A stretch of 62,543 nucleotides of DNA. Source: Deferribacteres bacterium. GTDB lineage: Bacteria > Nitrospirota > Thermodesulfovibrionia > UBA6902. Made by a program: the position numbers and the translations under genes. Shown here piece after piece: positions 12,343 through 31,393 of this stretch (within the stretch, counting starts at the first letter, position 1; each line of letters starts with the position of its first letter). The stretch covers positions 1-62,543 of the forward strand of contig JAADFS010000028.1 in NCBI GenBank assembly GCA_013152795.1. Reading direction: 5' to 3'. The notes beneath the pieces were generated by a model. That model did not search any database, had not been told where the DNA came from, and saw only the letters and a list, made by a program, of their open reading frames with translations.

Positions 12343-12419
12343 TGGGGTGAGCGATGGGACTCGAACCCACAACCACTGGAGCCACAGTCCAGTGCTCTAA
12401 CCATTGAGCTACGCTCACC
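12343..12419 (-). tRNA. tRNA-His (GTG anticodon)
   Basis: Reverse complement GGTGAGCGTAGCTCAATGGTTAGAGCACTGGACTGTGGCTCCAGTGGTTGTGGGTTCGAGTCCCATCGCTCACCCCA folds as a cloverleaf. Has the extra G-1, loop CTGTGGC and an encoded CCA. Confidence 0.9.
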
Positions 12420-12479: not shown

Positions 12480-12526
12480 TGGCGCGCCTGGGAGGATTCG
12501 AACCCCCGACCCACTGATTAGAAGTC
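12480..12526 (-). pseudogene. 3' fragment of tRNA-Arg (TCT anticodon); prophage attachment-site remnant
   Basis: Reverse complement ..GACTTCTAATCAGTGGGTCGGGGGTTCGAATCCTCCCAGGCGCGCCA contains the anticodon loop, 3' anticodon stem, T-arm, acceptor 3' strand and CCA. It closely resembles E. coli argU. No D-arm or 5' acceptor strand is present; sequence beyond 12526 is integrase-proximal phage DNA. Confidence 0.8.
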
Positions 12527-12557: not shown

Positions 12558-13634
12558 TCAACCGGTTATTTCATTTTTCGTGTAGTCATTGTTGACTACA
12601 CTGTTCGGTTTTAAATTCAATCCTGCATTTTCAAGTGCATTTTTTTTATTCTCTAACGCCACATGGGTATAAAATTCCGTTGTTGCAATCTGAGCATGGC
12701 CGAGGATTTCCTGTATTGTGCGCAGGTTGATATCCTTTGCCAGCAGGTGAGTTGCCAGGCTATGGCGGAGCAGGTGCGGATGGATGTGTTTATTAATCCC
12801 TGCTTTTTTCTTTGCCCTCTGTATTGCCCTTCTTATGTCCCTGATCGGCCTTGCACCGTTGACCGGTGAAGGGAAGACCCATTCTGAGCCGGTCGACTTG
12901 AGCAGGTCCTTCAATTCATCGTGCAGCCAATCCGACAAGGGCAGAACATTGGTTTTGTCCCCCTTCCGTCTGACCATTATGGCCCTGGTCTCCCAGTCGA
13001 TGTCTGTTCGTCTCAACATTCTTGCCTCGCTGAACCGAAGGCCGAGGTTGAACATGACAAGGAACATAACACGGTACACCGGGGAATCAGCGGCCGCGAT
13101 GAAGCGGACAGCTTCCTCAAATGTAAGCACCTGTGGAATAGGTCTTTTATATGGCAATTTTTCAATCTTCAATACCTCGGCGGGCCTCAGGTTCATGTTT
13201 TTGTCAGCCCATTTCAGGAAGGCTGCAAAGTAATCGAGCTCTTTGTTGATTGACCTGTTCCCTGCATTTTTCCCGCGGAAATCTTCTTTTCTCTGTTTCT
13301 GGTATAGCTGGAGCAACCTGTTTGTAATGTCATGGATCCGCATGGTTCCGAAGAACGGCACCAGATACCTCTCAAAACATTGCTTCTTGTCCACGAGGGT
13401 TTTCTTTGCCTGGTGCAGACGGACATACTCGAGGTATGCCGGGACCATTGCCTTGATAGGATCATTCAGGGCAACAAGCGGAGATGCTCCGCTCTTTTTC
13501 CGCATCTCTGCCTCAATTTCCCTTGCCTCATTTTCGGTTGTCCCTTCCGGAAGAGTAATACGCCGCCTCTTCCCCTTCCTGCCGTGGGGATAATAATCTA
13601 TGACGTATTTGCCGTTTCGGATACGGATAGACAT
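12558..13634 (-). CDS. phage integrase, tyrosine recombinase
   Basis: GLRFSEARML (Arg), HPHLLRHSLATHLL (HxxR), LGHAQIATTEFYTHV (His/Tyr). Adjacent to the tRNA-Arg fragment. Confidence 0.9.
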   Translation of the reverse strand: MSIRIRNGKYVIDYYPHGRKGKRRRITLPEGTTENEAREIEAEMRKKSGASPLVALNDPIKAMVPAYLEYVRLHQAKKTLVDKKQCFERYLVPFFGTMRIHDITNRLLQLYQKQRKEDFRGKNAGNRSINKELDYFAAFLKWADKNMNLRPAEVLKIEKLPYKRPIPQVLTFEEAVRFIAAADSPVYRVMFLVMFNLGLRFSEARMLRRTDIDWETRAIMVRRKGDKTNVLPLSDWLHDELKDLLKSTGSEWVFPSPVNGARPIRDIRRAIQRAKKKAGINKHIHPHLLRHSLATHLLAKDINLRTIQEILGHAQIATTEFYTHVALENKKNALENAGLNLKPNSVVNNDYTKNEITG

Positions 13635-15946: not shown

Positions 15947-16160
15947 AATCGCCTTAACCAACAGCTTTCATGTCTTCTGTATCGACGAGATACAACCAAT
16001 ACTCAAAGAAGCTCTGATCAGGAAGCATCCAACCGCTGCATATTGGGATGTTCAGAACAGGACATTCCTTCTGTTTGATGAGGCGCTGAACCTGTTGGAT
16101 GCCTTGACCATTGATGACATCGATCAATTAAAGGAGGGGGACAGATGTTTGACAAGCTGA
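15906..16160 (+). CDS. hypothetical protein
   Basis: ATG preceded by GGGAGGGGAG. 84 aa. Confidence 0.4.
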   Translation: MERVSIEELKLPDEIALTNSFHVFCIDEIQPILKEALIRKHPTAAYWDVQNRTFLLFDEALNLLDALTIDDIDQLKEGDRCLTS

Positions 16161-16648
16161 CAAAAGTGATCGTCCTGATCGCAATTGGATGGATTCTCGG
16201 GTATATGCATCATTTCATGGTGACAAGAGACATCCTTCAGGATTTCAGCAACAGGATCTTGTGGCTTGAGCAGGATATGAGCCTTGCAAACGCAGGGATA
16301 TCTCAGGTCTTCAAGGAAGTCATCACTCTCAATCAAAAATTCAATATCGGGAGTGATTTCAAGGTCACCGGCTATTCGAATGACCCCGGATCAATCAATG
16401 TCCCGCGCTGGCGTGACGGAAGGACTGCCACCGGAGTGAAGGCTACACCCGGGATCTGCGCGGCCGACTGGGATTTGATCCCGGTTGGAACTCTTGTCTG
16501 GATAGATGATTACGGCTGGTGTGAAATCCAGGACAGGGGCGGCAAGGTAAAGGGAAGGCATATCGATCTTTTCTTTGATGATGTGCTTGATGCAAAGAAT
16601 TGGGGTGTGAGAAAGACTGATATAGTCATTGCTGATCTGGAGGAGTAG
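16145..16648 (+). CDS. membrane-anchored 3D-domain (RlpA/MltA-like double-psi barrel) protein
   Basis: N-terminal TM helix VIVLIAIGWILGY. FKVTGYSNDPGS..TATGVKATPGICAADWDLIPVGT..IQDRGGKVKGRHIDLFF matches the 3D-domain pattern. Confidence 0.7.
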   Translation: MFDKLTKVIVLIAIGWILGYMHHFMVTRDILQDFSNRILWLEQDMSLANAGISQVFKEVITLNQKFNIGSDFKVTGYSNDPGSINVPRWRDGRTATGVKATPGICAADWDLIPVGTLVWIDDYGWCEIQDRGGKVKGRHIDLFFDDVLDAKNWGVRKTDIVIADLEE

Positions 16649-16664
16649 CTCCCCCGCCCTCCTG

Positions 16665-16745
16665 ATGCCGTGGGGATAGGGTTCCGGACCCGACAAGGTG
16701 AATGCCTCCACCTTCCCCACGGCATAACCAGAGGCGATTTGGCAA
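16665..16745 (+). ncRNA. structured leader element, copy 1 (see findings)
   Basis: 11-bp outer helix ATGCCGTGGGG/CCCCACGGCAT encloses a 45-nt core identical to 17543-17587. Conserved tail AACCAGAGGC. Confidence 0.5.
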
Positions 16746-16865
16746 GGAGATGCTTTATATCCTGCATATCAAGGATTTTGCTGGTGTAAAGGACATAGTT
16801 GCATACACATGTGTTCTTTCAACAATCAGTGGGCTCTACAGCACATTGCCCCAGGGAGTGAATTG

Positions 16866-17528
16866 ATGAGCACAACCCTTGAATCTGTTGCAGAGAAACA
16901 TACTGATCAGGATATATGTCCCCGCTACCCCGGCAACCCGACCAGGACAGACTTGATGTGCGCCACAAGGCATAAGAAGGCCGTAAGGGATCCGGAGAAG
17001 ATCCTTTATTCGAATTGTGCTGACTGCAATATCGGTAAAGAGGCAGCAATGAAGGATATCAAACCGATCAAATATACAGCCAAGCATACATCGACCGATA
17101 CACATCCCTGTTCGCAGTGTGGCAGGCCTACCCGGGGCAAGTTATGTGCCGGATGTTTGCTCCAGGGCAAGTCAGGCTCTTCCAGGGAGACAAAGGAGAC
17201 AGAAATGCAAAAACAAAAGATCTGCAAGGTTGAAGGATGCGGCAATCCTTTCAAAGCAAGAGGTTATTGTGACAAGCACTATAAAAATGCCGTTAAAACC
17301 GGTGAGATTAAGACTACACCCAGGAATAAAAAGAAGATCAATCCTCAACCGGAGAAGCAGGAAACGTGCAATGCAGAGAATATGACCGCCATGCTTGCCC
17401 AGCTTCTCTATTGCAGCCGGGTTCTCGATTCCGAAATCAACGCCGCCATGCTTCAGAACAGGATCGAGATCAAGAATATATCCGATGTAAGGTTCCGCCT
17501 TGGAGAGATAATGAGAGGGGCTCTATAG
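16866..17528 (+). CDS. Cys-rich (zinc-ribbon-like) hypothetical protein
   Basis: CSQCGRPTRGKLCAGC and CKVEGCGNPFKARGYCDKHY motifs. ATG 16866 preceded by GGGAG; ATG 16809 is an alternative start. Confidence 0.5.
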   Translation: MSTTLESVAEKHTDQDICPRYPGNPTRTDLMCATRHKKAVRDPEKILYSNCADCNIGKEAAMKDIKPIKYTAKHTSTDTHPCSQCGRPTRGKLCAGCLLQGKSGSSRETKETEMQKQKICKVEGCGNPFKARGYCDKHYKNAVKTGEIKTTPRNKKKINPQPEKQETCNAENMTAMLAQLLYCSRVLDSEINAAMLQNRIEIKNISDVRFRLGEIMRGAL

Positions 17529-17536
17529 TCCCATCG

Positions 17537-17623
17537 CCTGCAGGGATAGGGTTCCGGACCCGACAAGGTGAATGCCTCCACCTTCCCTGCAGGACAACCA
17601 GAGGCATATATGGAAAGGAGGCA
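17537..17623 (+). ncRNA. structured leader element, copy 2, immediately 5' of the recombinase/Cas12-like operon
   Basis: 9-bp outer helix CCTGCAGGG/CCCTGCAGG around the same 45-nt core. Loop TGCCTCC (17573-17579) is complementary to the SD GGAGGCA (17617-17623). Confidence 0.5.
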
Positions 17624-17627
17624 TTCC

Positions 17628-18236
17628 ATGACAGCAGAGAGGACATCAACAAGGACAAGGGCCGGAGAGAACTATCTCACCGAGCAGGAAGAGAAAAGGC
17701 TTTTCAGACACCTGAAGGGCCTGAAATCCCGCCAGGCAGAGCGTGACTATGTGCTCCTGAAGCTCTGCCGGCTGACAGGGCTCAGGAGGGCTGAGGCACT
17801 GGCCCTCAATGTGGGGGATGTGATCAACCAGAAGAGAATAATCATCGACGAACGGATCGCGCGCAAGGGGGCCGTGGGGGAAGTCGGCATCCCGGTGGAA
17901 CTGCAAAAAATCATCAAGCGGTTCCTCTGGCTTAAGCGCACCTGGCGCGAAAGCCTTGATGACGAGGCCCCTCTGTTCGTGAGCAAGAGGGGCAACAGGC
18001 TCTCTCTGAGGGCCTTCAACGACCTGATGGACAAGTGGTGCAGATCGGCGGGGATCCCGCGCTATACTCCGCACGCCCTACGTCACACAAAGGCGCACAG
18101 GATACTTGAGAAGTCGGACAACCCTCCAAAGGCCCTGGTATATGTCAACAATCAACTGAGGCACAAGTCCTACAACTCGACACTCGTATACACCCTCCCT
18201 ACAAAGGAAGAGAGGGAGAAGGTGGCAGGGCTGTAA
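17628..18236 (+). CDS. minimal tyrosine recombinase (catalytic domain only)
   Basis: GLRRAEALAL (Arg), HALRHTKAH (HxxR), LRHKSYNSTLVYT (His/Tyr). About 200 aa with no N-terminal SAM-like core-binding domain. ATG 17628 preceded by AAGGAGG. Confidence 0.8.
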   Translation: MTAERTSTRTRAGENYLTEQEEKRLFRHLKGLKSRQAERDYVLLKLCRLTGLRRAEALALNVGDVINQKRIIIDERIARKGAVGEVGIPVELQKIIKRFLWLKRTWRESLDDEAPLFVSKRGNRLSLRAFNDLMDKWCRSAGIPRYTPHALRHTKAHRILEKSDNPPKALVYVNNQLRHKSYNSTLVYTLPTKEEREKVAGL

Positions 18237-18237
18237 C

Positions 18238-19761
18238 ATGGCGAACCATTTCAACAAGGGAGTCGTGTTCGGAAAACTGGCGGGGCTTGAACGGAAGAAA
18301 TCCGAAGGGGGCAAACCCTACATCCAGATATACCTCGAATGCCCGAACGATCTCCACGGGGATGCAAAGGTTTACGGCCGGATGTGGGGAGAAGACAGGG
18401 TCAATGCCTTCATGGCCGGGCTGAACAGAGACGGCAAGCTCCTCATGGGGACCGGGCTCAGGCTTGAAGGATTTTTCAGCCAATACGACGCAGAGGACGG
18501 TCTCTACTGGGCCAATGCGGCACATCTCAAGGACAAGTTCATGAATGCCTACTTCTCGTCTCTGAGGCATGGCAGGAAACTTCACTTCCATGCCTTTGAC
18601 GGCAACCTCAGGTTTGAGCATGTCTTCACATCCGGGGGGATCCCGGCTGAGAAGATCTTCACCGACAATCCAAGGCAGAAACGTATCAGGATAACTCCTA
18701 TTTCCCGGGATATCTACCAGGACAGGCAGCGGGGCATTATCTCTCAGCGGGAGATGAAACGAAAGGCGCGCACCGAGGCGTTGATAACGCTTGCAGGCCT
18801 CCAGATGAGGTTCCGGACCATATTGCACCGGCCGGTGCCGGAGGGGAGCATCCTCAAGAAAGCCGTCATCAAGCGGATCAGGACCGGGAGGTACAACTAC
18901 AGGTGGACTCTCTCGCTGACCGTAGAGGTCCCGCCGGATGATTCGATGCCCGCAGGACAGGCACCCGCCGGCAAGACGGCAGGGCTCGACGTCGGTTACA
19001 GGATGATCGACGGCCGCCTGCGTGTTGGCTATCTGGCTGGAGATGCCGGACAGATGGAGATATACCTGCCCGGCCGGATAATGGAGCGGTTCATCCATGT
19101 GCAGGAGCTGCAACAGAAGAGCGACGCCCTGCTTGAGGAGATGAAGGCACGCCTGGTCGAGATGCTCCCCGAGGGGCTCCCAGCGGAGCTGAAAGCAAAC
19201 TGGCATATGGCAAGGCACGGAAGGCTCAGAAAGATTATCCGTTGGCTTGCGGATAACAGCCCTGAACATATAGCCCTCAGGGAACTGCGGAAATGGGAGC
19301 GGCAGGATGCAGCGATACAGAATGAGAAGGAGGGACTCAGGAGGCGTGCAATCAGGCAGAGGCAATGGTTCTACTACAACCTCGCGCACAGGCTGGCCGG
19401 AGAGTATGGGACCCTTGTGATCGAATCTCTCAAGCCCGGCGACCTGCAGAGGAAGACCCAGCTTGATGACGACCGGACACTGCCCCGGAGAGCGTCTTTC
19501 TATCGAGGTATCGCTGCCGTTGGTGCTTTGCTCGACATTATTCAGGATGTCGGACGCCGAAAGGGCATGACGGTCCACAAGGTTGATCCCGCATACACCA
19601 CGTTGACCTGCCATGTCTGTGGTCATGTGGTAGAACCCGTTGACAGGGCCAGCCTGCTCTGGTGCTGCGACGGCTGCGGATCCGAGTGGGACCAGGACTA
19701 TAACGCTGCGTATAACCTCTATATGAGTGGAAGGGAGAGCAAAGAGGCAAAAGTTGCATAA
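18238..19761 (+). CDS. TnpB/Cas12-like RuvC nuclease, putative compact type V CRISPR effector
   Basis: 507 aa. RuvC-I TAGLDVGY (D251), RuvC-II TLVIESL (E396), RuvC-III WDQDYNAAYNL (D486/D488). Zinc ribbon CHVCGH..CCDGCG. DPAYTTLTC linker as in TnpB. Followed 47 nt later by a CRISPR array. Confidence 0.8.
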   Translation: MANHFNKGVVFGKLAGLERKKSEGGKPYIQIYLECPNDLHGDAKVYGRMWGEDRVNAFMAGLNRDGKLLMGTGLRLEGFFSQYDAEDGLYWANAAHLKDKFMNAYFSSLRHGRKLHFHAFDGNLRFEHVFTSGGIPAEKIFTDNPRQKRIRITPISRDIYQDRQRGIISQREMKRKARTEALITLAGLQMRFRTILHRPVPEGSILKKAVIKRIRTGRYNYRWTLSLTVEVPPDDSMPAGQAPAGKTAGLDVGYRMIDGRLRVGYLAGDAGQMEIYLPGRIMERFIHVQELQQKSDALLEEMKARLVEMLPEGLPAELKANWHMARHGRLRKIIRWLADNSPEHIALRELRKWERQDAAIQNEKEGLRRRAIRQRQWFYYNLAHRLAGEYGTLVIESLKPGDLQRKTQLDDDRTLPRRASFYRGIAAVGALLDIIQDVGRRKGMTVHKVDPAYTTLTCHVCGHVVEPVDRASLLWCCDGCGSEWDQDYNAAYNLYMSGRESKEAKVA

Positions 19762-19808
19762 CCCCGGCTTTAATATGCTGAAAAGAAACAGGAAAAGAGA
19801 GGGGTGCA

Positions 19809-20111
19809 GTAGGAAAACTGGGTCCAGGTCAGGAAGCCTGGAACAGGGACAATCCCTGAGGGGATAGGAAGGCGGGCCTGTAGGAAAACTGGGTCCAGGT
19901 CAGGAAGCCTGGAACTCCGGATGGTGATAAATTTTTCCATGTTTAAGTAGGAAAACTGGGTCCAGGTCAGGAAGCCTGGAACTGGGGATCAACGGGTTTC
20001 TTGCCGCCGCTTTCTTGGTAGGAAAACTGGGTCCAGGTCAGGAAGCCTGGAACTGGCGTTCAGGATAGCAAGTCCGTCCGCGATGCTGGGTAGGAAAACT
20101 GGGTCCGGAAC
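19809..20111 (+). CRISPR. CRISPR array: 4 identical 36-nt repeats, 1 truncated terminal repeat, 4 spacers
   Basis: Repeat GTAGGAAAACTGGGTCCAGGTCAGGAAGCCTGGAAC at 19809, 19880, 19947 and 20018. Spacers of 35, 31, 35 and 36 nt, all different. Terminal unit 20090-20111 is GTAGGAAAACTGGGTCC+GGAAC. Confidence 0.9.
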
Positions 20112-20198
20112 GACCAAGTTCACCGGTGAGCGGTAGCGAGTTCGGTGCAGCGCATTGTTGGGCCTGATGGCCTTAATCTAAATACAGGAGGTTACGCT

Positions 20199-20387
20199 AT
20201 GAAACTGAGGAACATTCTTATCATTCAGGCTATTATCGTTCTGTTCATTGGTATAGGCTGGGTGAAAAATCTTATTAAACTCGCACATTGTGATTTTGAG
20301 GCCCCATATCAGGCTGAGGTTATCTATGCCGCTGGCTTGATTCCACCTGTGGGGGCTATAACCGGCTGGCTTGACCTTGGGAAGTGA
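20199..20387 (+). CDS. small membrane protein
   Basis: ATG 20199 preceded by CAGGAGG. Two hydrophobic helices (ILIIQAIIVLFIGIGWV, IYAAGLIPPVGAITGWL). Confidence 0.45.
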   Translation: MKLRNILIIQAIIVLFIGIGWVKNLIKLAHCDFEAPYQAEVIYAAGLIPPVGAITGWLDLGK

Positions 20388-20395
20388 GGTGAATC

Positions 20396-20737
20396 ATGAA
20401 AAACAAAGGCTTTACTTTCATCGAACTTCTTATCATCCTCGCAATGGCCGGGATTGTTGCGACCATGTTCTTTGGCTTGGTCGTAAATAATCGTGGGGCA
20501 ACCGAGCGCAGGGCCTTCGCCGGGGCAGTGAAATTTGCAACCGGCAACAATATTACAGTCAAGCGCATTTCATGTGCCGGAGATTCAAACCGTGACGGAT
20601 ATGGCACTTGTGCCATTTCCACGGAAGATAATCAGCGTATAATGCTCCAGTGCCCGACAGATTATTTTGACGTTGAATGGTTCGGAGCAAGCGGCTGTAA
20701 AGAGGTTTTCCAGGATTTCAATTTTACGATTAGATGA
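20396..20737 (+). CDS. type IV pilin-like / pseudopilin protein with prepilin N-terminal methylation motif
   Basis: MKNKGFTFIELLIILAMAGIVA is the canonical G|FTxxE prepilin signal. Four Cys in the C-terminal part. Confidence 0.7.
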   Translation: MKNKGFTFIELLIILAMAGIVATMFFGLVVNNRGATERRAFAGAVKFATGNNITVKRISCAGDSNRDGYGTCAISTEDNQRIMLQCPTDYFDVEWFGASGCKEVFQDFNFTIR

Positions 20738-20765: not shown

Positions 20766-21107
20766 GTGGAATATAACTGGCACAGAGAAGTCATTGACAA
20801 GGCAACCAGGGCCATATCGCGGCACGCGCAGAAGCTGTACGACGAGGGCCTTGATCTCAGCGGATGGTTCTCTTTCTTTGAGAAGAATCATCCAGAGGTC
20901 TTCAGCAAGTATCTGAAGATACCCGAAAGGCTCAACAGGGCGAAGGCTAAAAACTCCATGTCGGAGTTCAAAAAGATAGCAAAAGAATACCAGGACACCG
21001 AGATATGGGCAATCAACCAGTTCGCAGAACACCTTGAGAAGGAAAAAACCAAGGCCCTTGAGGCCATGAGGGAAAAACGGAGAGATCCGCAGGAGGTGCT
21101 TATATGA
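20766..21107 (+). CDS. hypothetical protein
   Basis: GTG 20766 preceded by AAGGAG. The longer ORF from 20667 overlaps the pilin-like gene. Confidence 0.4.
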   Translation: MEYNWHREVIDKATRAISRHAQKLYDEGLDLSGWFSFFEKNHPEVFSKYLKIPERLNRAKAKNSMSEFKKIAKEYQDTEIWAINQFAEHLEKEKTKALEAMREKRRDPQEVLI

Positions 21108-21448
21108 CACATGAGGAGTTCAACGAGGTCCTCGAAGCACGATTCGAGAAAAGCCGCATGGTACTTGCAAAAAAGGCCGGAGAATACGCCCGGGGCGACC
21201 GGCTCAGCAACTTCAAGAAGGCTGCCGGTGCACTCCAGTGCACTCCGCACAAGGCCCTTGTCGGCATGTGGATGAAGCACATCATCAGCATCATCGACAT
21301 GGTCGACGACATGGAGAAAGGTAAGGACACATCTTACATTATATGGGATGAAAAGATCGGCGATGCAATCAATTACCTGATACTGCTTGATGGATTGGTC
21401 TGTGAGGGCCTTGGCGTCAAACCAACTCAAGAGGTTGAGAATGTTTGA
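21104..21448 (+). CDS. DUF1599-like (nucleotide-modification-associated domain 1) protein
   Basis: GDRLSNFKKAA..ALVGMWMKHIISIIDMV resembles the DUF1599 pattern as recalled. ATGA overlap with the upstream stop. Confidence 0.45.
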   Translation: MTHEEFNEVLEARFEKSRMVLAKKAGEYARGDRLSNFKKAAGALQCTPHKALVGMWMKHIISIIDMVDDMEKGKDTSYIIWDEKIGDAINYLILLDGLVCEGLGVKPTQEVENV

Positions 21449-22349
21449 TCGCATTGAAAAAGGCCTCTGGTGGGACAGGGCTTGGACTCTTGTGGAAGGA
21501 TGCACCAAGGTAAGCCCTGCCTGCCGGAACTGCTGGGCCGAGAGAGATGCATGGCGGAAGTCTCATCAGAAAAATGAAAAAATCAGCAGGCGGTATGAGG
21601 ATCTCCTGGATGAAAACGGACACTGGACCGGCAGGATCCGCTTGATGGAGAATTTCGACATTCCTTGCCTGATCAAGAAGATCAGAAGACCTACGGTCTT
21701 TGCAATCTGGAATGACCTGTTTCATGAGAATGTGCCCAGACTATACATTGAACACGCTCTCATTGTAATGGCGCTTCTTAAGAAACATGTCTTTCTGGTC
21801 CTGACTAAAAGAATCGACAGAGCAAAAAAGATTTTGGATACCCCTGCGCCGAATATCTGGTTCGGAGTCACAGCGGAGAATCAGGAACAGGCAAACAGGC
21901 GGATACCAACACTCATGCAGATACGAGCAGCAAAGCGGTTCGTTTCCATTGAGCCTATGCTGGGGCCCGTAATTTTAGAGAAATGGCTTGCGGACAGAAA
22001 ACTGGATTGGGTCATCCTCGGCGGTGAGACAGGCAAAAATGCCCGGCCCATGCATCCCGGTTGGGCGCGCAAGGTCCGGGACGACTGCCAGGCGGCGGGG
22101 GTGCCGTTTTTCTTTAAGCAATGGGGGGAGTGGTTGCCTGATCGCCAACTCTTCAATCACCCTCAAGGCCCGGGGGGGAAACTGATGCTTACCTTAGAGC
22201 ATAATTCACCCAAGGCGATTGCTACACGGCAAAAGCTACAAATCACAACAATTTGCCATCATGGATTTACTACCACCTTTGCCCATGTCGGCAAGAAGGC
22301 TGCTGGCGCGTTGCTTGATGGCAGGGAATGGCGCGAGGTGCCGGAGTGA
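21441..22349 (+). CDS. phage Gp37/Gp68 family protein (DUF5131)
   Basis: N-terminal WDRAWTLVEGCTKVSPACRNCWAE matches the family signature W.p..GC...S.gC..CyA. ATG 21441 overlaps the upstream stop. Confidence 0.65.
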   Translation: MFDRIEKGLWWDRAWTLVEGCTKVSPACRNCWAERDAWRKSHQKNEKISRRYEDLLDENGHWTGRIRLMENFDIPCLIKKIRRPTVFAIWNDLFHENVPRLYIEHALIVMALLKKHVFLVLTKRIDRAKKILDTPAPNIWFGVTAENQEQANRRIPTLMQIRAAKRFVSIEPMLGPVILEKWLADRKLDWVILGGETGKNARPMHPGWARKVRDDCQAAGVPFFFKQWGEWLPDRQLFNHPQGPGGKLMLTLEHNSPKAIATRQKLQITTICHHGFTTTFAHVGKKAAGALLDGREWREVPE

Positions 22350-22351
22350 AA

Positions 22352-22534
22352 ATGATTGAAGAGAAACTTGCCGAGGCTGAAAGAAAAGCTTGGGATGCCC
22401 TCGGCAGATACAAGTTCTTGATGTTCGGATATTGGGCGGCTATATGGGTGCATATGAATTCAATGTCACCTGCCAAAAGGAGCAATCCTTTCAATCGTCT
22501 GGTGCAGATGGCAAGGGAGGCAAAGAGACAATGA
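22352..22534 (+). CDS. hypothetical small protein
   Basis: ATG 22352 after GGAG. 60 aa. Ends in an ATGA overlap with the next gene. Confidence 0.35.
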   Translation: MIEEKLAEAERKAWDALGRYKFLMFGYWAAIWVHMNSMSPAKRSNPFNRLVQMAREAKRQ

Positions 22535-23103
22535 CTGAGCGTCCTATAATTATGACAACTTCTATGGTGCGGGGCATTCTTTTCGGGCGAAAAACGCAGA
22601 CAAGGAGACTGGCAAGGCGGAGAACATGCCCCTATGGAGCCCCTGGCGACCGGCTGTGGGTAAGAGAGACGTGGGCCCACCACAAGGCATGCAACCGTGC
22701 CGAGCATGATCACGATACAGGGTGTCTTTTGTACAAGGCAGACCATATTGAAAATGTCTGGAACGATAAAACTCGCTGGATACATATATGGTATGAGAAA
22801 AAGCCCTCTATTCATATGCCTCGGTGGGCATCGAGGATACTTCTTGAAATAGTCAGCGTCAGGGCAGAAAGAATTCAGGATATAAGTATTGAGGATATTC
22901 ACGCAGAGGGTATTGATAGATGGGAAGACTTTGAAGGTGGAAAACATCTATCAGTTTATCAGGCTCAAGGGGCCTTTAAAAATTTTTGGAATTCACTCTA
23001 CGCCAAGAGTGGGTACGGATGGGATGCAAATCCAGTGGTATGGAGGATAGAGTTCAGAGTATTACACGACTTGTGCCGTGCAGGTCTGCCGCTTATGAAA
23101 TGA
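22531..23103 (+). CDS. ASCH-like domain protein
   Basis: MTERPIIMTTSMVRGILFGRKTQTRR..GDRLWVRETW is the pattern common to phage ASCH-type proteins. Confidence 0.45.
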   Translation: MTERPIIMTTSMVRGILFGRKTQTRRLARRRTCPYGAPGDRLWVRETWAHHKACNRAEHDHDTGCLLYKADHIENVWNDKTRWIHIWYEKKPSIHMPRWASRILLEIVSVRAERIQDISIEDIHAEGIDRWEDFEGGKHLSVYQAQGAFKNFWNSLYAKSGYGWDANPVVWRIEFRVLHDLCRAGLPLMK

Positions 23104-23136
23104 AAGGATGGATCTTTATGTGGCTGGAAACGGGCC

Positions 23137-24861
23137 GTGCTTATCGCACGGACTGTTATGGACATAAGGACAGATCGTGCGCAGACGTCCATCCTCGACG
23201 CCGTAATTGCACGTCCAGGCATCGGGAACGTCGGAGACGCTCTCGTTTGGGATCAATTCGAAATATTTGCAATCAGGATAGGTATTCATAAAAAAAGTAT
23301 AGCAAAAAGGAGAAGTATTATCAAGGAACTCATAGTCGACAACTTTGCAGGAGGTGGCGGGGCTTCGGTAGGCATAGAGGCTGCGCTCGGGCGACCGGTG
23401 GACATTGCGGTCAATCATGACCCGGTTGCCATTGCCATGCACAAGGCAAACCATCCGCGCACGCGGCATCTGAACGAAAATATCTGGGACGTTGATCCGG
23501 TCGATATTTGCGCCGGCCGGCCTGTCGGTCTCGCATGGTTCAGCCCGGACTGTACTCACTTCAGCAAGGCCAAGGGCGGACGGCCGGTCAATAAGAAGAT
23601 ACGGGGCCTCGCCTGGGTGGTTCTCAAGTGGGCCGCTACCGTGCGGCCGCGGATAATCATACTCGAGAATGTCGAGGAGTTCGTCACCTGGGGACCACTC
23701 GTAAAGAAAGAGGACGGCAACCACTACCCCTGCCCGAAGCGCAAGGGTCAGACCTTCAAGGTCTTCGTGAACGCCCTCAAAAAGCACGGTTATGACGTCA
23801 ACTGGCGGGAGCTTCGGGCCTGTGACTACGGGGCCCCGACCATAAGAAAACGTCTCTTCCTGATAGCCCGCTGCGACGGGCAGGCCATAACCTGGCCTGA
23901 GCCCACGCACGGGGACCCGAAAAGCAAGGCGGTCAGGATAGGACGGTTGAAGCCCTGGCGGACGGCCGCAGAGTGCATTGACTGGTCTATCCCATGCCCC
24001 TCGATATTTATGACCAGGGAAGAGGCCAGGGCATACGGCGTCAAGCGGCCACTGGCCGAGGCGACCATGAGGCGCATAGCAAGGGGCATCAAGCGGTATG
24101 TCCTGGATGCGGCGGAGCCATTTATCGTGCCAATAGCTCATTATAATGGCCGAGATACCATTCATGGCATAAATGATCCATTCAGGACCGTTACCGCCAA
24201 CCCCAGGGGAGGGTCATTCAGCTTGGTGATGCCTTCTCTCATGCACCTGACCCATCATGGAAAGCAGACCCTTGTCTCTGCTTTCCTCGCCAAGCATTAT
24301 GGTGGGGTCGTTGGTACCAGTATGGACAGCCCCATAAGCACGGTAACGAGCAAAGATCACCATTCGCTCGTCACCGCCCACATCATAAAGCTATATGGCA
24401 CGAATACCGGTCATGCTTGTAATGAACCCCTTCATACGGTCACGGCTGGGGGTTTTCATCTCGGCGAGGTATGGGCCTTCCTCATGAAGTATTACGGCAC
24501 GGACCAGGACCCTCAACTCCGCAAGCCCTTGCATACGGTCACTACAAAGGACCGTTTCGGTCTCGTTACGGTCCATGGGGAGGAATACCGGATAGTGGAC
24601 ATAGGCATGAGGATGCTTACACCGAGGGAACTTTTCCGGGCGCAGGGGTTCCCGGACAGCTACATCATTGACATAGGGCACGACCCAAGGGAACTCTTCC
24701 GGGACAAGCCCCTCACGAAGACCCAGCAGGTTGCCCTGTGCGGCAACTCTGTATGCCCCGACTTGGCGAAAATCCTCGTCGAGTCGAATTATGAAGCAGG
24801 CAATGGAATCCTTTCAGAAAAATGCGATACAACAGGGATGTCTACACTCCAACCCACCTGA
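23137..24861 (+). CDS. DNA (cytosine-5)-methyltransferase with expanded target-recognition region
   Basis: Motif I DNFAGGGGAS, motif IV FSPDCTHFSKA, motif VI IILENV, motif X CGNSVCP. Four tandem ~32-aa modules between motifs VIII and IX. Exact start uncertain. Confidence 0.88.
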   Translation: MLIARTVMDIRTDRAQTSILDAVIARPGIGNVGDALVWDQFEIFAIRIGIHKKSIAKRRSIIKELIVDNFAGGGGASVGIEAALGRPVDIAVNHDPVAIAMHKANHPRTRHLNENIWDVDPVDICAGRPVGLAWFSPDCTHFSKAKGGRPVNKKIRGLAWVVLKWAATVRPRIIILENVEEFVTWGPLVKKEDGNHYPCPKRKGQTFKVFVNALKKHGYDVNWRELRACDYGAPTIRKRLFLIARCDGQAITWPEPTHGDPKSKAVRIGRLKPWRTAAECIDWSIPCPSIFMTREEARAYGVKRPLAEATMRRIARGIKRYVLDAAEPFIVPIAHYNGRDTIHGINDPFRTVTANPRGGSFSLVMPSLMHLTHHGKQTLVSAFLAKHYGGVVGTSMDSPISTVTSKDHHSLVTAHIIKLYGTNTGHACNEPLHTVTAGGFHLGEVWAFLMKYYGTDQDPQLRKPLHTVTTKDRFGLVTVHGEEYRIVDIGMRMLTPRELFRAQGFPDSYIIDIGHDPRELFRDKPLTKTQQVALCGNSVCPDLAKILVESNYEAGNGILSEKCDTTGMSTLQPT

Positions 24862-24942
24862 GAAATCGTCTCAGAGAGGCTCTCAGGCGGCCGGTTTTTG
24901 GGGGATAATGAGTAAATCCAACAATATTAAAAAGGAGGTATC

Positions 24943-25209
24943 ATGATTAACCTGGGAGACAAAGTCAAAGACATTGTAACTGGATTTGAAGGGGTAGTAA
25001 CTTGCAGATGTGAATATCTGAACGGTTGTGTCCGTGTTGAAGTGCAACTAGATAAGCTCAAGGATGGCAAACCGATTGGTTCTCTCTGGATTGATACACA
25101 ACAACTGATCGTTGTCAAAGCGGGCAAGGTCAATATTAAATCTGTTAAGAATGATGACCCTCCTGGTGGACCCGGAAGCATTCCCACTTCATTCAGTCAG
25201 CCAGATTAA
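24943..25209 (+). CDS. hypothetical protein
   Basis: ATG preceded by AAAGGAGG. 88 aa. Confidence 0.45.
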   Translation: MINLGDKVKDIVTGFEGVVTCRCEYLNGCVRVEVQLDKLKDGKPIGSLWIDTQQLIVVKAGKVNIKSVKNDDPPGGPGSIPTSFSQPD

Positions 25210-25230
25210 TTCTCAGGAGGTTAAGTAATT

Positions 25231-25527
25231 ATGGATATGCCGATATTACGATTTGAGCTTGAAGGGCTGAAGCGCTCTTTTATGGCTGTACTCAATGACT
25301 ACAACAAAGAACTTGAGCAAATGGTGCAGAAAGCGATGAATGAATATTGTACCCCAGAGAACCTGGAATCAATTATTAATGCCAAAGCTGCAAGTATCAT
25401 TCGCATGATTATTGAAGAAGAGATGGAGCGTTTTTGCTTGGATAGCGAGGAAATCCGCGAGGCGATCCGAAATGCTGTTATAGCACAGCCTTCTTCATTC
25501 AATCAGAAGGAGACTAATCAGGATTGA
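25231..25527 (+). CDS. hypothetical protein
   Basis: ATG preceded by CAGGAGG. 98 aa, acidic. Confidence 0.45.
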   Translation: MDMPILRFELEGLKRSFMAVLNDYNKELEQMVQKAMNEYCTPENLESIINAKAASIIRMIIEEEMERFCLDSEEIREAIRNAVIAQPSSFNQKETNQD

Positions 25528-29714: not shown

Positions 29715-30418
29715 TGTCCTTCTTGCGGCTTCTGGCCCTTCTTTCTGAAAAATGCCTTCTCCGCGGTTCTTTTTTCAGTTTGAAGATAGTTATAAGATTG
29801 TTGTTGGTATTAGGTTTTAGGTTGATATCTGTTTTTTCTCTGTGCCGGCAGGGAAAGGACAAGGCCGATAACGAACCGAAAAAAGCGAAATTACAGAACT
29901 GCATAAAATGATAAAAAGTGCGATAACAGAGATTAATCAGATATCTAAAGTCAATAAAATTAATAGGTTTGTGGATTACAGTTTTATTAAAAGTGCGATA
30001 AGAGGTTAAATGTGAGGGTTTTTGATTGTCTCAGGTGGTGTGTGAAGGGGACCCCCCCTATCAAAAATTGGGTATAAGGTGTAGTGCCGTGACTCCATAG
30101 GTTTCTGTAAATTGGTAGACATCGAAAAAGGTTTTCTATGGTTTGTAAGAGGTTTGATGTATGGTGATAATCAGTTTAAAAGGTGGGGGGTCTGGGGGGA
30201 GGCCGAAACTTCAAGCGCTGCTGGAGGTGTCTGATGTATGAATACGAGATAGTAGCGATCTATTTCGCTCGGAAAAGGATGAGAAGGCTTATGGAGGTTA
30301 TTGAACGCAAGGTATGCATTGCTATTGAAGAGATGAGATTGAAAAACAGTTTTTGGGAGGCTTATGTGCCTGGCCTTGGCTGGAGGAAGGTAAGCGATCT
30401 GTTGGAGGGGAAATACAA

Positions 30419-31393
30419 GTGAGGCAGTATATCAAGCACTGGGTAGAACATGAAAAAATCCATAAGGGCCGCCAGGCAAGTGGGGTGGAGCGGTACCGGA
30501 GGACCGTTGAGATGTTTCTCGAGTGGCTTGAGGTGAATGACATACCTCTGGAGCCCGGTAAGGTCTCAAGGTCGGATATAGATGCGTTCATGAAGTGGTT
30601 GTTCTATCAGAAAGGCAATATCAGGAATTCCTCCAGGGCAAATAAGCTGGCCGCTGTCAGATCCTTTTTCCGGTTCCTGGTATACATCGGGATAGTACAT
30701 GAGGATCCTACAAGCGGGATCCCTACTCCGCGGTTTTCCCCGAAGCTCCCTGTCAAGTTCACAACCGAGGAGCTCCGGTATATCTTCTCAATGCCTGATA
30801 CGAACACAGAGATGGGCATAAGGGATCTGGCAATGCTCATGACCCTCTACGGGGCCGGGCTCAGGGTATCAGAGCTCTGCAGCCTCCGAATGGGGGATGT
30901 GATAGACAATGGCGGATACATCAGGCTGAATATCATGGGCAAGGGCGGAAAGAGCAGGACGGTGACACTCAGAACAAACCCGTCAAAGGTGCTCAGGCAG
31001 TGGCTGACAATCAGGATGGCACAGGGAGCCGGGCTTGATGACATGGTATTCGTGAGACTACATGGAGGCAACCTGGAGGGCCTGTCTCCGGTAGCGGTCA
31101 ATAATGTCCTGAAAAAATATGCCCTGAAGGTGGGCATAAGGTCCTCTGATGCCTTTGTACATAAATTGAGGGCCACCTTTGCCACCGACCTTTACGATGC
31201 CGGCCGCGACAGGTGTCTGTATTGTGGCCATGCGGTGGAGAAGGTGGATATCTTTGAGATCATGCATCTGATGGGGCATAGCGATCCTAAGACAACAATG
31301 AGATACATTGCAATATCAGAGAAGGTGCTGAAGAAAACCGCCATACCGGACAGGCGTTGGAAAGAACTACTCGAAGGGAGGGCTGATGGGTAA
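30419..31393 (+). CDS. XerC/XerD-like tyrosine recombinase (full length, with N-terminal SAM-like domain)
   Basis: GLRVSELCSL (Arg), HKLRATFAT (HxxR), LMGHSDPKTTMRYI (His/Tyr). GTG 30419 preceded by GGAGGGG; ATG 30353 is an alternative start. Confidence 0.85.
   Translation: MRQYIKHWVEHEKIHKGRQASGVERYRRTVEMFLEWLEVNDIPLEPGKVSRSDIDAFMKWLFYQKGNIRNSSRANKLAAVRSFFRFLVYIGIVHEDPTSGIPTPRFSPKLPVKFTTEELRYIFSMPDTNTEMGIRDLAMLMTLYGAGLRVSELCSLRMGDVIDNGGYIRLNIMGKGGKSRTVTLRTNPSKVLRQWLTIRMAQGAGLDDMVFVRLHGGNLEGLSPVAVNNVLKKYALKVGIRSSDAFVHKLRATFATDLYDAGRDRCLYCGHAVEKVDIFEIMHLMGHSDPKTTMRYIAISEKVLKKTAIPDRRWKELLEGRADG

What the first reader, a model, noticed from the sequence alone, without database searches (positions are those of the whole stretch)
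19762..20111. Array details suggest a tracrRNA-independent 5'-handle crRNA; the terminal repeat is a precise hairpin deletion
**Seen in sequence.**
- The repeat GTAGGAAAACTGGG-TCCAGG-TCAGGAAG-CCTGGA-AC has a 6-bp stem and 8-nt loop two nucleotides from its 3' end.
- Given the gene-proximal leader and the degenerate distal repeat, the array is most simply read on the + strand.
- On that strand the hairpin sits directly 5' of each spacer, as in Cas12a and CasPhi crRNAs. The repeat also ends in AC, as CasPhi and Cas12f repeats do.
- The last unit (20090-20111) equals the repeat with exactly the central 14 nt AGGTCAGGAAGCCT removed.
- The leader is only 47 nt and has no obvious promoter, which suggests co-transcription with the effector gene.
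- I found no extended anti-repeat near the locus.

**Inference.** The effector processes its own crRNA, which carries a 5' handle.
Basis: partly seen in the sequence, partly recalled or inferred. Interest (0 to 1): 0.7.

Follow-up and report, generated by a model that had tools for sequence, protein, structure and literature searches.

The report
Prophage Cas12m array beside truncated effector

Summary
Four identical 36-nt repeats, four spacers and a 22-nt last unit lie 47 nt downstream of a 507-aa ORF. No promoter-like site, terminator-like site or anti-repeat was found.

The system is neither Cas12a-like nor CasPhi-like. It is type V-M (Cas12m). The protein's best solved relatives are Cas12m structures (E = 5e-44). 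About 55 relatives, mostly on viral contigs, carry a same-strand array just downstream.

The repeats share a covarying two-helix pseudoknot, and published Cas12m crRNAs have the same layout. The window repeat matches the solved MmCas12m2 scaffold position by position: a 6-bp helix at nt 15-20/29-34, G14 opposite A35, and a GAAG loop.

For this family, tracrRNA independence, a roughly 33-nt 5' handle and effector-dependent processing are already published. Plus-strand reading and co-transcription with the gene are supported.

Residues 1-88 are the first OB fold of a phage two-OB SSB. Residues 89-507 are Cas12m starting at about residue 163, so WED strand 1, most of REC1 and all of REC2 are missing. 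A syntenic prophage carries the intact SSB gene.

Whether this protein still processes or uses crRNA is doubtful. The "precise hairpin deletion" is literally true, but it rests on 5 nt, and 3'-eroded last repeats recur in relatives.

The parts
18238..18501 (+). Codons 1-88 of the 507-aa ORF: the first OB fold of a phage tandem-OB SSB-like gene. The rest of that gene is absent from the window.
   Evidence: - phmmer against 1.84 billion representatives gave 73 hits, all to the N-terminus of roughly 200-aa proteins. The best is P0007: 58% identity, E = 1.5e-27.
- P0007 lies in a syntenic prophage, L054/L055.
- The C-terminal half of that gene is absent from the window.
- The AF2 model gives pLDDT 80-91 for residues 7-84, and Foldseek matches this part to PriB and SSB.
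- The P0007 model (pLDDT 92) matches the two-OB SSBs of Deinococcus and Thermus at TM about 0.6.
18502..19761 (+). Codons 89-507 plus the stop: a Cas12m (type V-M) effector lacking its first roughly 162 residues. It keeps the last REC1 helix (LYW motif), the rest of WED, RuvC (D251/E396/D487) and the TNB zinc finger (C458, C461, C477, C480).
   Evidence: - PDB phmmer: 23vw_A Cas12m, E = 5e-44, query 86-496 against chain 156-569; 23vu UnCas12m4a, E = 7e-23.
- Foldseek: 8hhl Cas12m2, E = 3e-14; 8pm4 GoCas12m.
- BLASTP to the intact 582-aa relative in L056: 38% identity, window L89 aligned to L163.
- Pfam Cas12f1-like_TNB, E = 5.7e-16.
- The invariant residues come from alignment A1.
19762..19808 (+). 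A 47-nt gap between gene and array (the leader), with no recognisable promoter or terminator.
   Evidence: - The promoter and terminator scan found nothing here.
- In 32 relatives the gap ranges from -33 to 192 nt, with one of 667 nt. Nine are 25 nt or less.
19809..19844 (+). Repeat 1 (36 nt). S1 pairs nt 10-13 with 21-24. S2 pairs nt 15-20 with 29-34. G14 lies opposite A35, the loop GAAG is nt 25-28, and the repeat ends in AC.
   Evidence: plus the Cas12m2 crRNA description in PMC10442227.
19845..19879 (+). Spacer 1 (35 nt).
   Evidence: - Coordinates.
- No target was found in the window, the fetched loci, INPHARED phages, PLSDB plasmids or IMG/VR.
19880..19915 (+). Repeat 2, identical to repeat 1.
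19916..19946 (+). Spacer 2 (31 nt).
   Evidence: Coordinates. No target was found.
19947..19982 (+). Repeat 3, identical to repeat 1.
19983..20017 (+). Spacer 3 (35 nt).
   Evidence: Coordinates. No target was found.
20018..20053 (+). Repeat 4, identical to repeat 1.
20054..20089 (+). Spacer 4 (36 nt).
   Evidence: Coordinates. No target was found.
20090..20111 (+). Degenerate leader-distal repeat (22 nt): repeat nt 1-17 followed by GGAAC. It can no longer form the pseudoknot.
   Evidence: - Sequence identity checked.
- It folds at only -1.9 kcal/mol.
- Last repeats that keep the 5' part and lose the 3' part also occur in L005, L009 and L016.

Best explanation
**What it is.** This is a type V-M (Cas12m) CRISPR locus carried in the early/replication region of a tRNA-integrated prophage of a Deferribacteres MAG.

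**How the array is read (inferred from the family).**
- The array is read on the + strand, most likely as a continuation of the effector transcript.
- Each crRNA would be about 33 nt of repeat-derived 5' handle plus about 17-20 nt of the following spacer.
- The handle folds into the Cas12m pseudoknot: S1 CUGG/UCAG, S2 UCCAGG/CCUGGA, G14 opposite A35, GAAG loop. No tracrRNA is involved.
- The last unit has no spacer after it, so its scaffold is dispensable and has decayed.

**The effector is not intact.**
- An illegitimate recombination or deletion joined codon 88 of the phage's tandem-OB SSB gene in frame to about codon 163 of cas12m.
- This removed WED strand 1, most of REC1 and all of the REC2 coiled coil.
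- In Cas12m2 these parts help hold the PAM duplex, the heteroduplex and the displaced strand.

**Most likely consequence (inferred).**
- The fusion may still bind the crRNA scaffold, because WED and RuvC are largely present.
- It is probably impaired for PAM-dependent DNA binding.
- The locus would then be a recently disabled V-M system rather than a working one.

**Shown versus inferred.** Family assignment, repeat architecture, orientation, absence of an anti-repeat, and the chimeric gene structure are shown. Transcription, processing and loss of function are inferred.
For: **Family assignment**
- The best solved relatives are Cas12m structures.
- Forty-six IMG/VR viral loci, 3 genome loci and 5 metagenome loci encode relatives. 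Nearly all have an array just downstream on the same strand.

**Repeat architecture**
- On a plain MAFFT alignment of 29 distinct repeats, S2 is 91% paired and S1 is 75% paired.
- All 9 pairs show compensatory changes. None of 500 shuffles reaches the observed score, and slid controls stay at or below 49%.
- Eight biochemically characterised Cas12m crRNAs have the same layout (PMC11013384 Table S5).
- The window repeat matches the MmCas12m2 register described in PMC10442227.

**Strand**
- G-U pairs occur only in the + sense.
- Degenerate repeats lie at the gene-distal end in the window and in relatives.

**No tracrRNA**
- No anti-repeat was found.
- The family is experimentally tracrRNA-free.

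**Co-transcription**
- The 47-nt gap has no promoter-like or terminator-like site.
- Nine of 32 relatives have gaps of 25 nt or less.

**Chimera**
- The N-terminal 88 aa match an SSB family.
- A related prophage has the intact 207-aa gene at the same place.
- The junction is exactly at residue 88/89.
- All relatives with a complete 5' end (one, L023, runs off its contig) have the canonical N-terminus and none has an OB fold.
- The window holds no remnant of the missing Cas12m part or of the SSB C-terminal half.
Against: - There are no expression data, so strand, processing and activity are inferred from relatives.
- The retained Cas12m part shows no erosion:
  - the 419 codons are open;
  - the RuvC triad and zinc finger are intact;
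  - 11 of its 13 departures from family-conserved residues are shared with the intact closest relative, L056;
  - all four repeats are identical.
- That pattern fits a very recent break, but it fits continued selection on the fusion equally well.
- The window repeat is an outlier in the family: it scores 15.6 bits against the family covariance model and ends in AAC, not GAC.
- No spacer target was found, so activity cannot be judged from targets.
- The AF2 model is poor for residues 86-240, so the fold of the truncated WED domain is unknown.
Confidence: 0.65

Rival explanations
1. The SSB-OB::Cas12m fusion is a working new effector. The single-strand-binding OB fold would replace the REC1/REC2 lobe, for example by holding the displaced non-target strand as the arginine-rich REC pocket does in Cas12m2. 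The array would still supply functional guides.
For: - The fusion is in frame at a domain boundary: after the last strand of the OB fold and just before the PAM-reading LYW helix.
- The retained Cas12m part shows no erosion relative to the intact relative L056.
- The repeats are identical.
- REC1/REC2 of Cas12m2 bind the displaced single strand (PMC10442227), and an SSB OB fold also binds single-stranded DNA.
Against: - It is unique: a cluster of one among 5.8 billion clusters, and none of about 55 relatives has it.
- WED strand 1 is missing. So are residues that in Cas12m2 stack on the first heteroduplex pair (Met4), hold the crRNA (His12) and read the PAM (Tyr141).
- The phage has also lost the second OB fold and the C-terminal tip of its SSB, which looks like collateral damage.
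- One in three random deletions is in frame.
Confidence: 0.15
2. One reading: an intact effector of a Cas12a/CasPhi-like kind recognises a simple 3'-proximal hairpin and cuts its own pre-crRNA.
For: - The hairpin and the terminal AC are present.
- There is no anti-repeat.
Against: - CasPhi matches are not significant (E = 0.13-0.19) and Cas12a gives no hit, whereas Cas12m gives E = 5e-44.
- The handle is a covarying pseudoknot.
- The effector is truncated and chimeric.
Confidence: 0.07
3. The gene fusion is an assembly or binning artefact. In the real phage, ssb and cas12m would be separate, intact genes.
For: - The contig is from a metagenome-assembled genome.
- The fusion is seen once only.
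Against: - Both flanks are syntenic with one prophage backbone, L054, so two compensating misjoins would be needed.
- There is no composition break at the junction.
- The missing halves of both genes are nowhere in the 62.5-kb contig.
- An in-frame join without a shared repeat is not what assemblers produce.
Confidence: 0.08
4. A Cas12f-like, tracrRNA-dependent miniature system, with the tracrRNA simply not recognised.
For: - The Pfam hit is named Cas12f1-like_TNB.
- The protein is small.
Against: - NCBIfam Cas12f2 scores 36 bits against a cut-off of 450.
- No anti-repeat occurs anywhere in the contig.
- The repeat forms its own scaffold, as in the tracrRNA-free Cas12m systems.
Confidence: 0.03

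Closest known systems
Type V-M CRISPR-Cas12m (MmCas12m2, GoCas12m, MsCas12m, PmCas12m; PDB 8hhl, 8pm4, 23vw)
   Same: - The WED-RuvC-TNB regions are homologous (E = 5e-44).
- The array lies just downstream of the gene on the same strand.
- The repeat is 36 nt with the S1/S2 pseudoknot directly 5' of the spacer. Its register is identical to the Mm crRNA: helix at nt 15-20/29-34, G14 opposite A35, GAAG loop.
- There is no tracrRNA, and no adaptation genes were found among the neighbouring ORFs checked.
- It is carried on a mobile element. V-M is known on plasmids and on some prophages (PMC11656645).
   Different: - The effector lacks about 162 N-terminal residues (WED strand 1, most of REC1, all of REC2) and carries an SSB OB fold instead.
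- The RuvC triad is DED, as in Cas12m clades 3 and 4, not the HDD of MmCas12m2.
- The repeat's 5' third is diverged.
- S1 is CUGG/UCAG, with no flipped-out base at -24.
- The repeat ends in AAC, not GAC.
- The closest intact relative is only 38% identical.
   Same: - A single crRNA with a repeat-derived 5' handle.
- Structure adjacent to the spacer.
- No tracrRNA, and processing depends on the effector.
   Different: - The proteins are not detectably related beyond the generic RuvC/TNB core (CasPhi E = 0.13-0.19).
- The handle here is about 33 nt with two helices.
- Cas12a cuts in WED and CasPhi cuts in RuvC. The Cas12m processing site is still unknown and does not depend on RuvC (PMC11013384, PMC10442227).
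TnpB/omega-RNA and Cas12f
   Same: - The same RuvC-TNB core.
- Sub-threshold NCBIfam guided_TnpB hit (74 bits against a cut-off of 100).
- Small size.
   Different: - TnpB has no CRISPR array and uses a roughly 150-nt omega RNA.
- Cas12f needs a tracrRNA and acts as a dimer.
- Neither feature is present here.
Two-OB-fold SSBs of Deinococcus and Thermus (PDB 1se8, 2cwa), for the N-terminal 88 residues
   Same: - The parent roughly 200-aa phage family folds as two OB domains (TM about 0.6).
- Many members end in an acidic ...PF tip like bacterial SSB.
   Different: - The family has no Pfam or PHROG assignment.
- Only the first OB fold survives in the window.
- Single-stranded DNA binding has not been tested.

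Membership tests
Type V-M CRISPR-Cas12m | Effector homologous to Cas12m across WED, RuvC and TNB | tested here: met
   - phmmer against PDB: 23vw_A Cas12m, E = 5e-44, over query 86-496.
- Foldseek: 8hhl and 8pm4 rank first.
Type V-M CRISPR-Cas12m | Complete effector architecture with the N-terminal WED strand, REC1 and the REC2 coiled coil | tested here: not met
   - The alignment starts at L89 of the window protein, opposite L163 of the intact relative.
- All relatives with a complete 5' end have the YxYG... N-terminus.
- No remnant of it exists in the window.
Type V-M CRISPR-Cas12m | CRISPR array directly downstream on the same strand, with 36-37-nt repeats that form the stem I/stem II pseudoknot and end in AC | tested here: met
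   and the comparison with published crRNAs.
Type V-M CRISPR-Cas12m | No tracrRNA (no anti-repeat near the locus) | tested here: met
   - Exact k-mer scan and RNAduplex scan of the whole contig.
- No Rfam family matches near the locus.
Type V-M CRISPR-Cas12m | Effector-dependent pre-crRNA processing to a roughly 50-nt crRNA | not testable with these tools
   - Known for MsCas12m, MmCas12m2 and PmCas12m from the literature.
- Testing it here needs RNA-seq or a cleavage assay.
Type V-M CRISPR-Cas12m | PAM-dependent DNA binding without cleavage | not testable with these tools
   - The RuvC triad D251/E396/D487 is intact.
- Several residues that contact the PAM or the displaced strand in Cas12m2 fall in the deleted part.
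Cas12a / CasPhi (Cas12j) | Sequence or fold membership of the effector | tested here: not met
   - CasPhi E = 0.13-0.19, and Cas12a is not hit.
- CasPhi ranks 24th in Foldseek with TM 0.25.
Cas12f (type V-F) | NCBIfam model score, and a tracrRNA with an anti-repeat | tested here: not met
   - Cas12f2 scores 36 bits against a cut-off of 450.
- No anti-repeat was found.
TnpB (IS200/IS605, IS607) | NCBIfam guided_TnpB score above its cut-off, a transposon context, and no array | tested here: not met
   - 74 bits against a cut-off of 100.
- A CRISPR array is present.

The most novel reading that the evidence does not exclude
The in-frame SSB-OB::Cas12m(delta-N) protein is a selected, working effector. 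A single-strand-DNA-binding OB fold would have replaced the REC lobe of a Cas12, giving a 507-aa RNA-guided DNA binder with a new way of stabilising the R-loop.
Probability: 0.13. Interest if true: 0.75.

Novelty: new member of a known kind. Interest (0 to 1): 0.38.

Why it matters
**The array itself.** For the array, this is tidy confirmation rather than discovery. It adds a divergent lineage to type V-M, together with the soil-metagenome relative L056, whose repeat also ends in GGAAC. The Cas12m pseudoknot geometry holds even at 38% protein identity or less.

**Family-wide observations.**
- Phage-borne Cas12m loci are common in IMG/VR.
- Many place the array within 25 nt of the stop codon, so read-through transcription is likely a family habit.

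**The chimera.** The part that could matter is the effector. It is a natural experiment in which the whole REC lobe of a Cas12 is replaced by an SSB OB fold. If it works, it would inform minimal-effector design and show how much of Cas12m is needed for crRNA binding and processing. If it does not, it is a dated snapshot of how a phage-borne CRISPR system dies.

Tried and rejected
- **Nearby DNA matches.** Megablast of the locus against INPHARED phages and complete E. coli genomes found nothing.
- **Rfam.** Only the tRNA at 12346-12418 was found.
- **Profile protein search.** A search with alignment A1 added no closer relatives.
- **N-terminal 88 aa.** The word-index search found nothing. The exhaustive phmmer search was what revealed the SSB family.
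- **SSB family in viral collections.**
  - The search for related loci with P0007 in IMG/VR found nothing.
  - Alignment A2 was too diverse to search with.
  - tblastn against INPHARED found nothing.
- **Repeat core.** TCCAGGTCAGGAAGCCTGGAAC has no exact match in IMG/VR or in JGI metagenome contigs.
- **Spacers.** No target was found in the window or the fetched loci (up to 7 mismatches), in phages or plasmids by blastn, or in IMG/VR with the first 22 nt.
- **Covariance model.** The family model aligned the window repeat one base out of register at only 15.6 bits, so it was not used for pair counts.
- **N-padded structural alignment.** MAFFT re-gapped it, so covariation was counted on the unfitted alignment A4 instead.
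- **attR.** No copy of the attachment region of 14 nt or more was found in the contig.
- **SSB next to cas12m.** No SSB-family gene lies next to cas12m in any of the 60 fetched loci, so an ancestral ssb-cas12m adjacency could not be shown.
- **Rejected readings.** Cas12f/tracrRNA, TnpB/omega-RNA and minus-strand transcription were considered and rejected.

Full report
**1. The observation**

The sequence is as described.
- Four identical 36-nt repeats, GTAGGAAAACTGGGTCCAGGTCAGGAAGCCTGGAAC, lie at 19809, 19880, 19947 and 20018.
- The spacers are 35, 31, 35 and 36 nt.
- A 22-nt last unit lies at 20090-20111.
- A 47-nt gap separates the array from the stop codon of a 507-aa + strand ORF (18238-19761).

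The hairpin is real. TCCAGG (nt 15-20) pairs with CCTGGA (nt 29-34) around an 8-nt loop, and AC follows. On its own it is not statistically exceptional: -11 kcal/mol, z = -1.74.

The last unit equals the repeat minus nt 18-31. Beyond the 17-nt prefix this rests on a 5-nt match, with chance 0.001 to 0.015. A 6-nt deletion followed by GGAA aligns nearly as well.

No promoter-like or terminator-like site lies in the gap. No anti-repeat was found:
- The longest antisense exact match elsewhere is 12 nt, 26 kb away.
- The best RNA duplex outside the array is -39.5 kcal/mol, inside the -33 to -46 range obtained with shuffled repeats. Near the locus the best is -32.

**2. What the locus is**

The window is a complete 62.5-kb contig of a Deferribacteres MAG, and the ORF is annotated there as "transposase". 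The surrounding genes show a prophage:
- tRNA at 12346-12418 and an integrase;
- a CI-like repressor and a CII-like regulator;
- a cytosine methylase and a DnaG-type primase;
- a portal protein and a tape measure protein.

The ORF has a Cas12f1-like TNB domain, but it fails the NCBIfam cut-offs for TnpB and Cas12f2.
- Among solved structures its best matches are Cas12m: 23vw_A at E = 5e-44 and 23vu at E = 7e-23.
- CasPhi is not significant, and Cas12a is not hit.
- Foldseek with an AF2 model ranks Cas12m2 (8hhl) and GoCas12m (8pm4) first.
- D251, E396 and D487 give a DED RuvC triad, and the CxxC...CxxC zinc finger is present.

**3. Relatives and their arrays**

Relatives are rare in the protein cluster database (4 hits). 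They are common on viral contigs: 46 IMG/VR loci, 3 genome loci and 5 metagenome loci. Nearly all carry a CRISPR array just downstream on the same strand, with 36-37-nt repeats ending in GAC.

The gap between gene and array ranges from overlap to about 190 nt. In 9 of 32 relatives it is 25 nt or less. The window's 47 nt is therefore ordinary, and read-through from the effector gene is a plausible family habit.

Gene-distal repeats are often degenerate. In L005, L009 and L016 they keep the 5' 14-24 nt and lose the rest. This supports the + orientation. It also makes the window's last unit look like normal decay of a repeat whose scaffold is never followed by a spacer.

**4. The handle is the Cas12m pseudoknot**

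Every repeat can form two helices. S2 (5-7 bp) ends two bases before the 3' end. S1 (3-4 bp) pairs the bases just upstream of S2 with the 5' part of the S2 loop. The mean number of paired positions is 9.4, against 3.2 for shuffled repeats.

Covariation was counted on an unfitted MAFFT alignment of 29 distinct repeats:
- S2 is 91% paired and S1 is 75% paired.
- All nine pairs show compensatory changes.
- None of 500 shuffles reaches the observed covariation.
- Sliding the partners drops pairing to 49% or less.
- G-U pairs are frequent, which fits the + strand only.

The eight Cas12m crRNAs used in PMC11013384 have the same layout (Table S5).

The solved MmCas12m2 crRNA pairs C(-22)...C(-17) with G(-8)...G(-3), and G(-23) with A(-2) (PMC10442227). 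In the window repeat these positions are:
- T15-G20 paired with C29-A34;
- G14 opposite A35;
- the loop at -12...-9 is GAAG in both.

The window differs in S1. It is CUGG (nt 10-13) with UCAG (nt 21-24), with no bulged -24 base, and the repeat ends in AAC. Its closest relative, L056, also ends in ...TGGAAC.

**5. What is already known for this family**

- Cas12m uses a single 50-60-nt crRNA with no tracrRNA.
- Pre-crRNA is cut within the repeat in an effector- and Mg-dependent reaction that does not depend on RuvC. The site is unknown (PMC11013384, PMC10442227).
- PmCas12m crRNA is about 33 nt of repeat plus about 17 nt of guide, cut after repeat nt 2-3.
- V-M loci are enriched on plasmids and occur in some prophages (PMC11656645).

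**6. The effector is a chimera**

Homology to Cas12m begins only at residue 86-89 of the ORF, opposite residue 156-163 of full-length proteins.

Residues 1-88 belong to something else.
- They match, at up to 58% identity (E = 1.5e-27), the N-terminus of a family of roughly 200-aa proteins with no Pfam or PHROG assignment.
- A high-confidence model of one member, P0007 (pLDDT 92), is a tandem-OB protein resembling the two-OB SSBs of Deinococcus and Thermus.
- Many members end in an acidic ...PF tip like SSB.

P0007 sits in a prophage syntenic with the window, with the order integrase, bPH, CI, CII..., SSB, next gene. A tblastx comparison shows which parts match:
- The window matches that phage through SSB codon 88 (18247-18495).
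- It matches again from 20751.
- In between lie the cas12m remainder, the array and two small ORFs.

The SSB C-terminal half and the Cas12m N-terminal part are nowhere in the contig. All relatives with a complete 5' end (one, L023, runs off its contig) have the canonical N-terminus, and none has the OB fold.

In Cas12m2 the deleted part includes:
- Met4 and His12 of the WED domain;
- the REC2 coiled coil;
- the arginine pocket R111, R112 and R126;
- the PAM-contacting Tyr141.

Trp152, the W of the retained LYW motif, survives.

**7. Broken or new?**

The retained part shows no erosion. Of 51 family-conserved columns it keeps 38, and 11 of its 13 departures are shared with the intact closest relative L056. 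The four repeats are identical.

This fits either a recent break or a selected fusion. Several points favour a recent disabling rearrangement (about 0.65):
- the fusion is unique;
- a structural strand of WED is lost;
- the phage's own SSB is damaged at the same time.

A functional neo-effector remains possible (about 0.13-0.15). An assembly artefact is unlikely (about 0.08), because both flanks sit in one syntenic backbone and there is no composition break.

**8. Verdict**

- The array is a new, divergent member of the known V-M kind.
- The only unusual element is the SSB::Cas12m fusion next to the array, which the finding did not notice.

Noticed in passing
window 18238-19761, junction at 18501/18502: The "effector" ORF is an in-frame fusion. 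Codons 1-88 are the first OB fold of a phage tandem-OB SSB-like gene. Codons 89-507 are a Cas12m lacking about 162 N-terminal residues. It was seen only in this contig.
   Followed up: yes
window 17568-18236 (+); also 12558-13634 (-) and 30353-31393 (+): The prophage has three tyrosine recombinases. The 222-aa one lacks an N-terminal SAM-like domain, and its stop codon lies one base before the start of the fusion ORF (TAAcATG). Its role is unknown, and it is absent from the syntenic prophage L054.
   Followed up: no
window 16145-18236 and about 21100-25500, compared with L054: These blocks have no counterpart in the syntenic prophage L054/L055, so the early region is mosaic. They hold a 3D-domain protein, an HNH-like protein, the small recombinase, DUF5131 and a C-5 cytosine methylase.
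   Followed up: partly
window 20145-20737 (+): Two small ORFs lie directly after the array and have no relatives in any fetched locus. The second (20396-20737) begins with a prepilin-type N-methylation motif. No terminator-like site lies directly after the array (the nearest on the + strand is at 20439-20462, inside the second ORF), so the ORFs would be transcribed through it.
   Followed up: no
proteins P0007-P0078; loci L054 6001-6624 and L055 4522-5145: A family of roughly 200-aa phage proteins has no Pfam or PHROG assignment. It is predicted with high confidence to be a two-OB-fold SSB of the Deinococcus/Thermus type, and many members end in ...(D/E)xPF.
   Followed up: partly
L005-L060, relatives of the effector: Cas12m loci are frequent on IMG/VR viral contigs. 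In 9 of 32 the array starts 25 nt or less after the effector stop codon, or overlaps it, which implies read-through transcription.
   Followed up: yes
L038 and L047 (both from IMGVR_UViG_3300032770_000005, 152.9 kb): One viral contig carries two separate cas12m-array loci about 48 kb apart, with different repeats.
   Followed up: no
L060 5382-6097 and 7019-7258: This array is split by about 0.9 kb of non-repeat sequence, and the repeats in the second block are degenerate.
   Followed up: no
window 12346-12418 (-) and 12480-12526: A tRNA gene lies next to the integrase, and a 47-nt stretch is 85% identical to the same position in L054, which suggests the attachment site. No second copy of 14 nt or more exists in the contig, so the far prophage end was not located.
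   Followed up: partly
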